Position numbers: made by a program
Source: a virus
Lineage: Duplodnaviria > Heunggongvirae > Uroviricota > Caudoviricetes
Strand: one strand, 5' to 3'
Virus record (IMG/VR): IMGVR_UViG_2529293223_000014
DNA: 48,078 bases
Part shown: positions 42,001 to 45,000 of the stretch, piece by piece
Layout of the letters: each line of letters begins with the position of its first letter
Numbering within the stretch: the first letter of the stretch is position 1

Positions 42001-45000
42001 AAAAAATGGATTCGAAACTGGTCTACAAACTGCATGACCGCTTTAACGACAGCATGTGCATTCTGCCGACCATAGAAGACCGCATCGGCAGATATATTCC
42101 ACCAGAGTTACCCCGTTAATCCTTCAATTCGCCCCTGCTCAGTCAGGGGCTTTTTACAGGACTCGAAAGCTATGTCATTTAAATATCGGGACAGCCCACT
42201 TTATTACCGGGCTGCGAGGGAGGCCTTGCGCCTTGAGCAGTCCGGCGAATATGACCGGGCAGCGAAGGCCTGGGCAAAAGCCAACCGCGAATCACATCAC
42301 GAACTGAATCAGGAATGGAGTGAACGCAGATCTGATTTTTGCCTGATGCAGAATATGCGTGAAAAGCGTAAGGCGGTCGAAGAATGATCGTTTACGTTGC
42401 CGGGCCGATGAGCGGTTACGAGCAATTTAACCGCCCGGCTTTTCATTCCGCAGCAAAGAGGCTAACGGACAAGGGATATGTTGTGCTTAACCCCGCAACT
42501 TTACCCAATGGTTTGACACAGGCTCAGTATATGGACATCTGCCTCGCAATGCTTCGCTGTGCCGATACGATTTATATGCTCAAAGAGTGGGAGTACTCTG
42601 CTGGCGCACGTGCAGAAAACGCGTTGGCAGAGAAACTGGAATTGAATGTGCTTTTTGAAGAGTGGGATTCAGATGGCCTATGAACGTGAAAGCCTTATCG
42701 AAAAGCACCTCGTCGCTGAAGTGAAAAAAGCTGGCGGAGTGGCCTTTAAGTTTGTATCTCCCGGTCACCGCTCGGTACCGGATCGCATTGTCCTGCTACC
42801 AGGTGGTCGTATCGTTTTCGTTGAATGTAAATCTCCCGGCAAGCCACCACGGCCTGACCAATTGCGCGAACATGAACGTCTGCGAAAACTGGGCTTTACC
42901 GTAGTGGTGCTGGATAGCAAAAATCTGGAGGGAATATTGTGAAAAAATCAGATGAGCACTTACAGTTTAAATTACGGGTCCCCCGCGCATTAGCGGAGGA
43001 GTTAAAGAAAACAGCAAAGAAAAATATGCGTTCAGTAAATGCAGAAATATTATTCAGACTTACAAACACAAACTAATCATCTTCACTCTTTGTGGGGTTC
43101 AAATAGCTTATAATTAAGCTATATAACCTCTCATTTTCCTTATCAAGTTTATATTTTTCTTTGACAAGCTTAACAAAGCCTTTTTTATATTCATCACCAT
43201 GTTCAGATGATTCCAAAAAGCGCTTCCAGGTATTACTATCTGATAACTCCCCCTCGGAATCTTTATATGTTATGTGAACTAAAACATTAAAGCTTTCTTT
43301 GAGACGATGGAGTACTTCCGCATTCATAGACCGCTTATTTTCCAGAGCTGCTTTTTCTAACTGCGCTTTCAGCTCCGCAGGTAAACGGATCTTCATCTGT
43401 GCATCTTCACGACTCATAGCAAACACCTCATAAACTCAATCACCAAATTATGCACCACGGTGGTGTTGACATCAATGAACCACGGTGGTTTACTAAAAAT
43501 GAACCACCGTGGTTCTATCGAGGTTAACGCTATGGCTATTCAGATCACGCAGTTACATCAGGCAGATATTTTCGGGTATATCGCGGACATGCTGGAAACA
43601 GCAAGACTTCTCAGTTCGCTGGAAAAAGGAGAGCAGTTAGCTTTTGAATTGATTTATTTTGCGCAGCAGGCCGCAAGGGAAGCTGCAAACAAGCCGTGGG
43701 ATGAATAAACAAAACGCGCTGATAGTTGCAGCTACCAGCGCATCTTTTACTGAATGAAGAATACAGCATGAATACTTTAACACTGATAAACGATACCAAG
43801 CAACCAATGATGGGCAGCCGGAAAATTGCAGAAGTCACTGGCAAACAGCATAAGCATGTTGTACGGGATATTCTGGCTATGCTTGAACAGTTACAAATCT
43901 ATAGTCCAGATTTGGATGATGATGATTTTAAAGGATTTATTATCAAGCGCAAAGAATACAAGGGACGTGATGTCATCGACGAGATTTGGCTTGATGAAAA
44001 TCTTTCCATGACTCTCGTCACCGGTTACGACGCAAAACGCCGGCTGGCACTCATCGAACAGTGGCAGGCGATGAAGATTGAATTAGAGCAACCTCGTCCG
44101 GCATCATTACCAGTGCCAACTCCTGCAATTCAGGTAAACGACAACATCGTTCAGTTTGCCCGTGTCGTTGCAGAAGCTACGGCATCCGCAACGATGAAAG
44201 CAATTGTCGAAGTGATGGCTCCCCGGCAAGTTCAAAACGTAACGCTTTCAACTCCGGGACATGAAACCAACTGGGTAGAAGACTTAAAACAACAAGTCAG
44301 AGAGTCACAACCACACAGTAACGGTGAATATGTCCCCGTCAGCAAAGCAGCATGGAAAACAGGTTTATCTGATTCAACATGCCGGAAATTGATCGGCTTC
44401 GCCAGGATACCGGTACGTTCAGACACCGGTGTTCGGGGATTGCTCGTTAAGCTCCCAGCGATCGAACAAGCAGCTCAAAAGCTGTTAAACGAATCGACAC
44501 CGCCGAAAGGTAACCGCAAGCGCTGGACACATCCGCAGTTTGGCAACTTCACCTACTACACCGATCTAATCTGACATTATTGCGCGGGATTACCCGCGCC
44601 CTACTGGCTAAAACACTATGGGACAAATTTTCACCCCCCGCCCGTATCAAGACCTGATCATCAATCACCAAATCGAAACCCTGCGCGGCAACATCTGGGC
44701 GGGGATGGGAATGGGTAAAACCGTAGCAACACTCACCACGCTGGAAGATCTTTTCATGGCTGGAACAGAAACACGCCCCGCGCTGGTCCTCGCGCCGCTA
44801 CGCGTTGCAGCAAGCACATGGCCGGATGAAGCGCTGAAATGGGAGCATCTGCGCAATATCGAGGTACAGCCGATTGTTGGTAATGCCAAAGCGCGCTCTA
44901 CGGCGCTGGCGAACAGCAACGCAAGCGTGTTCACCATCAACTACGATAACCTTGTCTGGCTGGTTGAAGAATTGGGAGAACAATGGCCGTTCGGTACTGT

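What the first reader, a model, noticed from the sequence alone, without database searches (positions are those of the whole stretch)
42939..43768. immI-like second immunity module: Arc-like and Mnt-like repressors with triple palindromic operators upstream of rha
Seen in sequence: a 45-aa Arc-like RHH ORF convergent with a 117-aa Mnt-like RHH protein, then three copies of the palindrome ACCAC(G/C)GTGGT interleaved with a TTGACA promoter, then a small ORF and the Rha gene. Established knowledge: in P22 the Mnt/Arc pair controls the antirepressor. This prophage therefore seems to combine a lambda-type cI/cro switch with a P22 immI-type circuit and three antirepressor-class genes. TAGTAG-containing motifs (CTACTAG) in the leader of the first antirepressor weakly resemble part of the Arc operator, which is speculative.
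Basis: partly seen in the sequence, partly recalled or inferred. Interest (0 to 1): 0.5.

Follow-up and report, generated by a model that had tools for sequence, protein, structure and literature searches.

The report
P22-style antirepressor control cassette in prophage
An E. coli prophage carries a compact, horizontally mobile copy of the phage P22 'immI' circuit: two small DNA-binding repressors and three operator sites guard a promoter that drives an antirepressor-type gene. It differs from P22 in that both repressors appear to read the same operators.

Summary
A 45-aa Arc homologue (42939-43076, +) converges on a 114-aa Mnt-like ribbon-helix-helix (RHH) protein (43073-43417, -). Three exact ACCAC(G/C)GTGGT palindromes (43454, 43479, 43503) interleave with two back-to-back promoters. 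A 58-aa ORF, Rha and an SNF2 helicase follow.

- The palindrome core CCACGGTGG is identical to the P22 mnt operator.
- In a second E. coli allele the RHH pair and the operators change together, while orf58 and Rha stay the same.
- In other genera the Rha slot holds Bro-N or KilA-N/ANT proteins instead.
- A conserved hairpin and an extended -10 promoter inside the rha start predict a ~65-nt antisense RNA with the geometry of P22 sar.

It differs from P22 in three ways:
- Both RHH proteins share base-contact residues (Q-K-R in this allele, Q-R-R in the other), so they probably read the same operators.
- The Arc homologue closes the upstream operon, and a non-RHH ORF occupies the arc position.
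- There are three operators rather than one.

The CTACTAG motifs belong to a P1 c4-type antisense RNA, not an Arc operator. Binding, repression and any antirepressor activity of Rha are untested. This is a new variant of a known kind, of moderate interest.

The parts
42939..43076 (+). Small RHH repressor (45 aa), homologue of P22 Arc. It is the last gene of the upstream replication operon, and its GTG start overlaps the VRR-NUC stop codon.
   Evidence: Pfam Arc 1.4e-9. 41% identity to P22 Arc. PDB Arc hits. Predicted beta-strand contact residues are Q9/K11/R13. Present in every enterobacterial copy of the cassette, always overlapping the upstream gene, whether that is VRR-NUC or SNF2.
43073..43417 (-). 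Large RHH repressor (114 aa), Mnt-like: an N-terminal RHH domain with an Mnt-type arm (MSRED) and a ~70-aa non-Mnt C-terminal domain.
   Evidence: Pfam Arc 1.7e-10, no PF11423 match. 31% identity to P22 Mnt over 61 aa. Predicted contact residues Q7/K9/R11. Homologues share the N-terminal domain but carry at least four unrelated C-terminal tails. The AF2 model is poor (pLDDT 52).
43447..43475 (-). Leftward promoter for the large RHH gene (TTGATG-17-CATAAT). O1 lies in its spacer.
   Evidence: Promoter scan. The block is nearly invariant across E. coli, Salmonella and Serratia.
43454..43464 (.). Operator O1, ACCACGGTGGT (extended form CACCACGGTGGTG).
   Evidence: The arms are invariant in E. coli, Salmonella and Serratia and the central base varies; the site is degenerate in Xenorhabdus. 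O1 carries C/G at positions +/-6 where O2 and O3 carry A/T.
43466..43494 (+). Rightward promoter (TTGACA-17-TTTACT) for orf58-rha-SNF2. O2 lies in its spacer and O3 just downstream.
   Evidence: Read from the sequence. The -35 is invariant apart from one base in Serratia (TCGACA), and the -10 is invariant across four genera. Type B keeps the same layout with TTGACT-17-TACTAA.
43479..43489 (.). Operator O2, ACCACGGTGGT (extended form AACCACGGTGGTT). It occupies the position of the arc operator in P22.
43503..43513 (.). Operator O3, ACCACCGTGGT (15-bp perfect palindrome GAACCACCGTGGTTC). It occupies the position of the mnt operator in P22.
   Evidence: The central base is G, C, A or T in different relatives.
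43532..43708 (+). orf58, the first gene of the regulated operon, in the position arc holds in P22. Predicted two-helix protein of unknown function.
   Evidence: 72-100% identical from Serratia to E. coli, and still recognisable in Xenorhabdus, whatever the RHH type or payload. No Pfam, PHROG, NCBIfam or PADLOC match. hhalign against the RHH alignment is negative. AF2 pLDDT 76, helices 10-28 and 34-53.
43701..43746 (-). Conserved hairpin plus U-run on the minus strand, in the orf58-rha spacer. Predicted terminator of a sar-like antisense RNA, and possibly a weak terminator on the + strand as well.
   Evidence: Terminator scan. 95% of cells paired across 12 distinct sequences, but covariation is not significant. 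Fold energy -24.6 kcal/mol, z = -5.3. The A-run upstream on the + strand is conserved.
43767..43803 (-). Predicted antisense promoter inside the first codons of rha (TTGCTT-18-TGtTAAAGT). The predicted start is at about 43767, giving an RNA of about 65 nt across the rha RBS.
   Evidence: Read by eye. The -10 is followed by ATTCATG, exactly as in P22 Psar (TGcTATACT ATTCATG). The -10 A2 and T6 are kept in all variants, and Serratia has ATGACA-17-TATTGT at the same place. There is no match to any known Rfam family here.
43768..44574 (+). Rha-family protein (268 aa), the payload in the antirepressor slot.
   Evidence: Pfam Phage_pRha. The N-terminus matches PHROG 'anti-repressor' families. The slot holds Bro-N in Xenorhabdus and KilA-N+ANT in Serratia. 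The N-terminal Rha domain is swapped among E. coli alleles while the C-terminal ~85 aa are kept.
44618..46012 (+). SNF2-family helicase, a replication-module gene. It lies downstream of the cassette here but upstream of it in some Salmonella relatives.
   Evidence: Pfam SNF2-rel_dom. Position varies. In phage vB_EcoM-689R2 the nuclease is followed by one hypothetical gene and then the helicase, with no RHH cassette.

Best explanation
This is a self-contained, horizontally mobile antirepressor control cassette of the phage P22 immI type. It is inserted at the end of the replication operon of an E. coli prophage.

Proposed mechanism:
1. The 114-aa Mnt-like RHH protein is made from the leftward promoter. 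It binds three 11-17-bp Omnt-like palindromes.
2. O2 sits in the spacer of the rightward promoter and O3 at its start site, so together they shut off orf58-rha(-SNF2). O1 sits in the spacer of the repressor's own promoter and gives negative autoregulation.
3. This keeps the Rha payload silent in the lysogen.
4. The 45-aa Arc homologue is made as the last product of the upstream (lytic/replication) operon. It carries the same base-contacting residues and acts on the same operators, so it clamps both promoters during lytic growth. This is the job Arc does in P22.
5. Transcription of its operon also runs antisense into the Mnt-like gene, because no terminator separates them.
6. A ~65-nt sar-like antisense RNA starts inside the first codons of rha and ends at the conserved hairpin. 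It adds translational repression of the payload.
7. A phage entering a cell that lacks these repressors would give a burst of orf58 and Rha. Rha would then act on a repressor or another DNA-bound regulator, as Ant does.

Shown here: the fold families, the operator architecture, the co-variation of operators with the RHH allele, the identity of the core to Omnt, the payload swapping and the conserved hairpin.

Inferred: binding, the sign of regulation, the timing, the antisense RNA, and the antirepressor activity of Rha.
For: - Fold and homology: Arc Pfam matches above the gathering score for both proteins, with independent PDB hits to Arc and Mnt and 41% and 31% identity to P22 Arc and Mnt.
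- Operators are real: three exact palindromes in 60 bp against 0.72 expected. Their arms are invariant in all ten sequences for O2, with one exception each for O1 and O3, and the central base is free. The nearby leader of the large RHH gene varies.
- The core CCACGGTGG is identical to the annotated P22 mnt operator.
- Allele swap: the type B E. coli cassettes have a different RHH pair (both beginning SKRDDPQLRVRIP) and different operators (CTCATTGTGAG / CTCACAATGAG) in the same promoter layout, with identical orf58 and, in L002, the same Rha.
- In type B the first 14 residues of the small and large proteins are identical despite 9 nucleotide differences, nearly all synonymous, in 42 nt. This points to selection for shared specificity rather than recent conversion.
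- Contact positions are Q-K-R in both type A proteins and Q-R-R in both type B proteins.
- The cassette is conserved in Salmonella, Serratia and Xenorhabdus, with Rha, KilA-N/ANT or Bro-N as payload, and its position relative to SNF2 varies.
- Variovorax and a Competibacteraceae MAG have the operator triplet with the P22 gene order: large RHH, operators/promoter, small RHH. Variovorax also has Rha downstream.
- Antisense RNA: conserved hairpin with a U-run on the minus strand, and the same -10/ATTCATG geometry as P22 Psar.
- No other operator copy exists in the window, so this promoter pair is the only target.
Against: - No experiment supports any step. Binding, repression and timing are all inferred.
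- Rha-family proteins are not established antirepressors. P22 itself carries a separate rha gene of unknown role, and its Ant belongs to other Pfam families (P22_AR_N/C).
- The large protein lacks the Mnt tetramerisation domain, and its AF2 model is uninformative.
- In type A the N-terminal arms of the two RHH proteins differ. In P22 the arm contributes to specificity (my recollection of Knight and Sauer 1989), so shared operators are less certain for the window's allele than for type B.
- The Arc homologue is outside the regulated operon, so the Arc-style negative feedback loop is not reproduced.
- SNF2, and an AlpA/Xis-like gene in relatives, lie downstream. The promoter may therefore serve replication or excision rather than immunity.
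- Hairpin covariation is not significant, and no known RNA family matches there in Rfam.
- The promoter that drives the small RHH gene was not identified. Terminator-like hairpins at 37894 and 42131 interrupt the upstream operon.
Confidence: 0.6

Rival explanations
1. Self-regulated accessory cassette (moron) whose payload is not an antirepressor. Rha, Bro-N and KilA-N proteins would be DNA-binding proteins that are toxic or act on the host or on competing phages, for example in host takeover or superinfection exclusion. The RHH pair would exist only to keep a harmful gene tightly off in the lysogen. The resemblance to immI would then be regulatory architecture only.
For: - The cassette moves as a unit and its payload family is swapped freely.
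- Two other autonomous promoter-RNA-gene-terminator cassettes carrying Bro-N and AntA sit in the same operon.
- Relatives carry TIR, SIR2 and Nmad5 genes in neighbouring slots.
- Repressor/Bro pairs have been described as toxin-antitoxin-like mobile modules, and some Ant-domain proteins are reported to be toxic (PMC2701414).
- The C-terminal 85 aa of Rha match no known family.
Against: - No PADLOC match for any cassette protein.
- The KilA-N/ANT and Bro-N alternatives and the PHROG matches are all annotated as antirepressor class.
- The architecture down to a sar-like element mirrors a circuit whose payload is a proven antirepressor.
Confidence: 0.2
2. Checkpoint promoter for late-early functions. 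The RHH-controlled promoter would mainly drive the SNF2 helicase, and in relatives the AlpA/Xis-type excision gene. The module would then gate replication and excision, with orf58 and Rha as accessory passengers.
For: - SNF2 follows rha after 43 bp with no terminator-like site between them.
- In Salmonella, Serratia and Xenorhabdus an HTH_17/AlpA gene and the integrase follow directly.
Against: - In three Salmonella loci SNF2 lies upstream of the cassette, outside the controlled operon.
- In the window there is no Xis-like gene between SNF2 and int: the only ORF there has no Pfam match and overlaps int.
- The parts that stay together are orf58 plus the antirepressor-class slot, not SNF2 or xis.
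Confidence: 0.12
3. The small RHH protein antagonises the large one. It would do this either by forming mixed dimers (it lacks the C-terminal domain) or by occupying operators without repressing. Expression of the upstream lytic operon would then switch the rha promoter on rather than off.
For: - The two RHH domains are 50% (type A) to 64% (type B) identical, with identical recognition segments in type B.
- RHH proteins are obligate intertwined dimers (established knowledge).
- The small gene is expressed from a different operon than the large one.
Against: - The small protein is a full-length Arc homologue (41% identity), and Arc is a complete, autonomous repressor.
- In Competibacteraceae a Q-K-R small RHH sits in the classical arc feedback position.
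- Nothing here tests heterodimer formation.
Confidence: 0.08

Closest known systems
Phage P22 immI region (mnt - Pmnt/Pant with Oarc and Omnt - arc - sar - ant)
   Same: - A divergent Mnt-like RHH gene and back-to-back overlapping promoters.
- One operator in the promoter spacer and one at the start site.
- An operator core CCACGGTGG identical to Omnt.
- An Arc homologue (41% identity).
- An intercistronic hairpin and an antisense promoter with the same spacing to the payload start codon as Psar.
- A payload of the antirepressor class.
   Different: - Three copies of one operator type instead of one Oarc plus one Omnt.
- Both RHH proteins share contact residues.
- The Arc homologue lies on the far side of the Mnt-like gene and ends another operon.
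- A non-RHH 58-aa ORF occupies the arc position.
- The large protein lacks the Mnt tetramerisation domain.
- The payload is Rha, not P22_AR_N/C Ant.
- The host phage is not P22-like (PolA/SNF2 replication module).
Phage P1/P7 immI (c4 antisense RNA - icd - ant)
   Same: It is also a second immunity locus that controls an antirepressor. Two modules of this type are present in the same window, upstream of the Bro-N and AntA genes.
   Different: The P1 type is controlled by a co-transcribed antisense RNA rather than by RHH proteins. The finding's cassette has no match to C4 or any other known RNA family in Rfam.
Repressor/Bro-type antirepressor two-gene modules of phages (Makarova et al. 2009, PMC2701414)
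   Same: A small DNA-binding repressor gene next to a Bro/Ant/KilA-class gene, behaving as a mobile, self-regulated unit.
   Different: Those pairs use Xre-type HTH repressors. Here there is an RHH pair, three operators, orf58 and a predicted antisense RNA.

Membership tests
Arc/Mnt ribbon-helix-helix family (Pfam PF03869) | Sequence match to the Arc-like DNA-binding domain above the curated threshold | tested here: met
   Small 38.1 bits and large 41.0 bits against a cut-off of 20.4. PDB Arc and Mnt hits for each protein alone.
Arc/Mnt ribbon-helix-helix family (Pfam PF03869) | Beta-alpha-alpha fold forming an intertwined dimer | tested here: inconclusive
   The AF2 monomer model of the large protein has pLDDT 52 and shows no strand. 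The small protein was not modelled, and a dimer cannot be modelled with these tools.
Mnt repressor in the strict sense | C-terminal tetramerisation domain (Pfam PF11423, Repressor_Mnt) | tested here: not met
   P22 Mnt matches PF11423 at 1.6e-20, but the window's large RHH does not match it. Its homologues carry at least four unrelated C-terminal tails.
Mnt repressor in the strict sense | Recognition of the palindromic operator GGTCCACGGTGGACC | tested here: inconclusive
   The operators share the central CCACGGTGG with Omnt but differ outside it (A instead of T). The contact residue His6 of Mnt is Gln here. Binding was not measured.
P22-type immI module | Maintenance repressor gene divergent from the antirepressor promoter, with operators overlapping both promoters | tested here: met
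   The layout is compared with the BK000583 annotation.
P22-type immI module | Second small repressor (arc) encoded as the first gene of the antirepressor operon | tested here: not met
   The first gene is orf58, which is not an RHH protein. The Arc homologue lies upstream and convergent. The feature is met in the Variovorax and Competibacteraceae relatives.
P22-type immI module | Arc and Mnt recognise different operators | tested here: not met
   Only one operator type is present. The contact residues are shared within each allele and change together between alleles.
P22-type immI module | Antisense RNA (sar) across the payload RBS | tested here: inconclusive
   The conserved hairpin, U-run and Psar-like promoter geometry favour it. 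Against it, no known RNA family matches there in Rfam, covariation is not significant, and no transcript data exist.
P22-type immI module | Payload protein inactivates the prophage repressor | not testable with these tools
   There is only family-level annotation: Phage_pRha and PHROG 'anti-repressor'.
Rha family (Pfam PF09669) | Phage_pRha domain above the gathering score | tested here: met
   41.4 bits against a cut-off of 29.9, residues 15-103.
Type II toxin-antitoxin system with an RHH antitoxin | RHH gene co-operonic with a recognised toxin-family gene | tested here: not met
   The RHH genes are not co-operonic with any toxin-family gene, and there are no toxin or PADLOC matches.
P1 c4-type immI | C4-family antisense RNA upstream of the controlled gene | tested here: not met
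   No C4 or Xcc1 match lies in 43300-44000. Such RNAs exist elsewhere in the window.

The most novel reading that the evidence does not exclude
The cassette may be an undescribed, widely transferable design for a second immunity switch. Two paralogous RHH repressors would be kept by selection on the same operator specificity but wired to opposite developmental programmes: one autoregulated in the lysogen, the other at the end of the lytic replication operon. Together with a sar-like antisense RNA and an invariant 58-aa partner protein, they would control an exchangeable antirepressor slot. The RHH pair and the operators would swap as one specificity unit, giving heteroimmune alleles. In this prophage the cassette coexists with two c4-RNA-gated antirepressor cassettes of different loop specificity, making three independent antirepressor locks in one genome.
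Probability: 0.3. Interest if true: 0.6.

Novelty: new variant of a known kind. Interest (0 to 1): 0.45.

Why it matters
immI-type second immunity regions are textbook biology for P22 and P1 but are thought of as lineage-specific. This work shows a P22-type control region functioning as a portable cassette. It has an Omnt-like operator core, an Arc homologue, a Mnt-like repressor and a probable sar analogue. It occurs in unrelated prophages of E. coli, Salmonella, Serratia and Xenorhabdus, with recognisable relatives in Variovorax and Competibacteraceae, and the payload is exchangeable among Rha, Bro-N and KilA-N/ANT.

If the model holds, three things follow:
- It gives a natural two-allele system (ACCACNGTGGT with Q-K-R, and CTCAnnnTGAG with Q-R-R) for studying how RHH specificity and operators co-evolve.
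- It offers a handle on what Rha-family proteins actually do.
- It may explain how prophages in polylysogens cross-induce or stay insulated from one another.

The cassette is rare: 19 of 5426 complete E. coli genomes carry it. Its components are already labelled 'Arc family' by automatic annotation, so the advance concerns circuit architecture and not a new protein family.

Tried and rejected
- The AF2 model of the large RHH (10-sequence alignment) came out at pLDDT 52 and says nothing reliable about the C-terminal domain.
- orf58 as a hidden RHH protein: hhalign against an RHH alignment gives probability 0.2%. A PDB profile search finds nothing. AF2 shows only two helices with a disordered N-terminus.
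- tblastn of the large RHH against 50,697 phage records found no match. The DNA of the region matches sequenced phages only over the VRR-NUC gene.
- The search for related loci with orf58 in species-representative genomes found nothing.
- An exact-pattern scan for O2 plus the -10 returned 64 loci. Almost all are chance; only 3 have clustered sites.
- An E-value-mode Rfam search of 43300-44000 gave only spurious microRNA-model hits on the palindromes.
- Hairpin covariation is not better than in shuffles.
- Literature searches found no description of this cassette. PDB entry 9PIO is only an Arc-derived ClpXP substrate.
- I considered a cascade in which the c4-gated AntA promoter also drives the small RHH gene. 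I dropped it because a strong terminator-like hairpin follows AntA at 42131-42150.
- PADLOC gave no defence-system membership for the cassette proteins.
- I considered Rha's conserved C-terminus as an excisionase-like HTH. It has no Pfam match, so I did not pursue it.
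Full report
CONTEXT. The window is an E. coli prophage inserted next to yfhL. It is 99.9% identical over the queried 2.1 kb (42600-44700) to E. coli O121 strain 201805972. The finding lies at the right end of a long rightward replication operon. The gene order is DUF2800, HNH, DUF2815, Bro-N, PolA, AntA, ANR/PerC-like, DUF4406, VRR-NUC, then the finding's genes, then an SNF2 helicase. A convergent tyrosine integrase follows (46206-47603).

OBSERVATION.
- The 45-aa ORF (42939-43076) starts with a GTG that overlaps the VRR-NUC stop.
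- The convergent ORF most likely starts at ATG 43417 (114 aa, SD GAGGTG). It overlaps the small gene at the stop codons, and no terminator was detected between them.
- Both proteins pass the Pfam Arc gathering score, and each alone retrieves the P22 Arc and Mnt PDB sequences.
- The small protein is 41% identical to P22 Arc over 44 residues. The large one is 31% identical to P22 Mnt over 61 residues, including the Mnt-type N-terminal arm (MSRED against MARDD).
- The large protein lacks the Mnt tetramerisation domain PF11423, and its AF2 model is uninformative (pLDDT 52).
- ACCACSGTGGT occurs three times in the window, all exact and all within 60 bp. Shuffles with one mismatch allowed give 0.72 expected.
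- TTGACA (43466) -17- TTTACT forms the rightward promoter. The scan also finds a leftward TTGATG-17-CATAAT (43475..43447).
- O1 therefore lies in the spacer of the leftward promoter, O2 in the spacer of the rightward one, and O3 just after its -10.

THE PALINDROMES ARE RHH OPERATORS. Three lines of comparative evidence support this.
1. The annotated P22 mnt operator is ATAGGTCCACGGTGGACCTGTAT. Its central nine bases CCACGGTGG are identical to the window's operators.
2. Other E. coli prophages carry a second allele of the cassette, type B (L002, L003 and eleven IMG/VR contigs). The small and large RHH proteins are both replaced: both begin SKRDDPQLRVRIP. The operators are replaced too (CTCATTGTGAG and CTCACAATGAG, plus a TGAG/CTCA pair upstream). 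The promoter layout is the same. orf58 stays 100% identical and, in L002, Rha is essentially unchanged. Operators thus co-vary with the RHH pair and not with orf58 or Rha.
3. Across E. coli, Salmonella, Serratia and Xenorhabdus type A copies, the operator arms, the -35 and the -10 are invariant or nearly so. The central base of each operator takes different values, and the 5' leader of the large gene varies freely. O1 keeps C/G at positions +/-6 where O2 and O3 keep A/T, except in Xenorhabdus, where O1 is degenerate. This suggests graded affinity, but that is inference.

BOTH RHH PROTEINS PROBABLY READ THE SAME OPERATORS. I aligned them to Arc (Q9, N11, R13) and Mnt (H6, N8, R10).
- The predicted base-contact positions are Q-K-R in both type A proteins and Q-R-R in both type B proteins.
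- In type B the first 14 residues of the two proteins are identical although the coding DNA differs at 9 of 42 positions, nearly all synonymous. This indicates selection rather than recent gene conversion.
- A Competibacteraceae MAG carries the same operator block with a large RHH (MTRDDPQMKIRLP) and a 53-aa RHH that also has Q-K-R.
- This departs from P22, where Arc and Mnt bind different operators.
- Caveat: in type A the N-terminal arms differ (MKKSDEHL against MSREDA). In P22 the arm contributes to specificity. That point is my recollection of Knight and Sauer 1989 and was not checked here.

THE CASSETTE IS A MOBILE UNIT WITH AN EXCHANGEABLE PAYLOAD.
- Full-length homologues of the large protein occur in many Salmonella genomes. 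In every locus examined the order is small Arc -> <- large Arc | operators | orf58 -> Rha.
- SNF2 lies downstream of Rha in some loci and upstream of the small Arc gene in others. The small gene always overlaps whatever gene precedes it.
- The large protein keeps its N-terminal domain but carries at least four unrelated C-terminal tails.
- In Xenorhabdus the payload is a Bro-N protein, and in Serratia a KilA-N+ANT protein.
- In Variovorax the order is exactly that of P22: large RHH <- three operators -> 56-aa Arc -> Rha.
- In the sequenced phage vB_EcoM-689R2 the cassette is absent. One hypothetical gene lies between the nuclease and the helicase.
- Only 19 of 5426 complete E. coli genomes carry orf58.

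A PROBABLE sar ANALOGUE.
- The 59-nt orf58-rha spacer holds a 10-bp hairpin (43711-43746). On the minus strand a U-run follows it. The scan calls it a minus-strand terminator.
- It folds at -24.6 kcal/mol (z = -5.3) and is 95% paired in 12 distinct sequences. Covariation is not significant.
- Inside the first codons of rha the minus strand reads TTGCTT-18-TGtTAAAGT-ATTCATG, where CAT is the rha start codon.
- P22 Psar reads TGcTATACT-ATTCATG, where CAT is the ant start codon. sar runs 70 nt to a terminator in the arc-ant spacer.
- The -10 positions A2 and T6 are kept in all Rha variants. Serratia, with an unrelated payload, has ATGACA-17-TATTGT at the same place.
- I therefore predict a ~65-nt antisense RNA (about 43767 to 43703) covering the rha RBS.
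- No known RNA family in Rfam matches here, and the promoter elements overlap conserved codons. This remains a prediction.

orf58. This is the most conserved part of the cassette, whatever the RHH allele or payload: 72-100% identity from Serratia to E. coli, and still recognisable in Xenorhabdus. It has no Pfam, PHROG, NCBIfam or PADLOC match. It is not detectably an RHH protein. It is modelled as two helices. Its role is unknown. It presumably acts on something that does not vary with the RHH allele or the payload.

THE CTACTAG MOTIFS.
- Their number is not above chance (3 found, 2.1 expected), but their placement is explained.
- Rfam finds an sRNA-Xcc1 (C4-like) RNA at 36982-37068 (70 bits). 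A C4 antisense RNA, isrK and a second Xcc1 lie at 40987-41303.
- In the Bro-N leader a TTGACA-18-TATATT promoter (36858) is followed by CTACTAG (36916). Next comes the RNA, whose hairpin loop reads CUAGUAG (37035). Then CTACTAG (37091) lies directly before the likely Bro-N start at 37109.
- This is the P1/P7 c4 logic, as I recall it from Citron and Schuster 1990, and not an Arc operator.
- The AntA leader is a near-duplicate with a different loop (CUUGCUG).
- Each of these two cassettes ends in a near-identical terminator (37894, 42131).
- The prophage therefore has three antirepressor-class genes under three separate locks: two of the P1 type and one of the P22 type.

MECHANISM, RIVALS AND VERDICT.
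- The best-supported model is a P22-type antirepressor lock. The large RHH acts as an autoregulated maintenance repressor. The Arc homologue is delivered by the lytic operon onto the same operators. Convergent transcription runs into the repressor gene, and an antisense RNA lies over the payload RBS.
- Three rivals remain: a self-silenced accessory cassette whose payload is not an antirepressor, a checkpoint promoter for SNF2 or excision functions, and the small RHH acting as an antagonist of the large one.
- None of the regulatory steps has been measured.
- The finding is real. It is a new variant of a known kind.

Noticed in passing
window 40873-41355: The AntA gene (41355-42119) has its own strong promoter (TTGACA-18-TATATT at 40873). 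Between promoter and gene lie Rfam-significant sRNA-Xcc1 (40987-41075), isrK (41121-41194) and C4 antisense RNA (41220-41303). A terminator follows the gene at 42131-42150. Together these form a P1/P7 immI-type cassette.
   Followed up: partly
window 36858-37913: The Bro-N gene has a near-identical promoter and leader, with an Xcc1/C4-like RNA at 36982-37068. The RNA's loop CUAGUAG is complementary to CTACTAG at 36916 and 37091. The real start is probably ATG 37109, not the annotated 36980. A near-identical terminator lies at 37894-37913. The two c4-like RNAs have different loop sequences (CUAGUAG and CUUGCUG), which suggests two specificities.
   Followed up: partly
window 33140-33300: Upstream of the first gene of the rightward replication operon there are two direct repeats ACTGTAGGGGT (about 33148 and 33182). 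A strong terminator-like hairpin, GCCCGCCGCAAGTGACGGGCTTTTTT (about 33270-33296), follows. The promoter and control of this operon are unclear. Terminators inside the operon suggest that antitermination or read-through is needed.
   Followed up: no
window 31448-31554: The intergenic region between the Cro-like gene and the S24 repressor contains palindromes of the form TTACAG-N-CTGTAA (for example ATTACAGGTTTACTTGTAAT and TACAGAAGTATCTGTA). These are likely operators of the main switch.
   Followed up: no
window 44583-44600: A GC-rich hairpin, GCGCGGGATTACCCGCGC, lies between rha and SNF2. It has no T-run, so it is not a terminator by the scan. It may be an RNA processing or stability element.
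   Followed up: no
window 46012-46206 and relatives L019-L029: Relatives carry an AlpA/HTH_17 excisionase-like gene or a PrtN-like 'PyocinActivator' gene between the SNF2/Rha operon and the integrase. The window has a different, larger integrase (465 aa) and no recognisable Xis gene.
   Followed up: partly
L004 (NZ_CP100500) 1768-2531: In this E. coli copy the large RHH gene is a truncated pseudogene and O3 has a mismatch (ACCGCAGTGGT). The small RHH, orf58 and a Rha variant remain. It may be a decaying cassette.
   Followed up: no
L004, L020, L032 and Salmonella loci L019-L027: The slot between PolA and VRR-NUC in related prophages holds TIR-like, SIR2, Nmad5 and HNH genes. It looks like a hotspot for defence or counter-defence accessory genes in this replication module.
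   Followed up: no
window 42172-42387: A 71-aa ANR/PerC-like putative transcriptional activator sits just upstream of DUF4406, VRR-NUC and the small RHH gene. It starts immediately after the AntA terminator. It could be relevant to expression of the small RHH gene.
   Followed up: no
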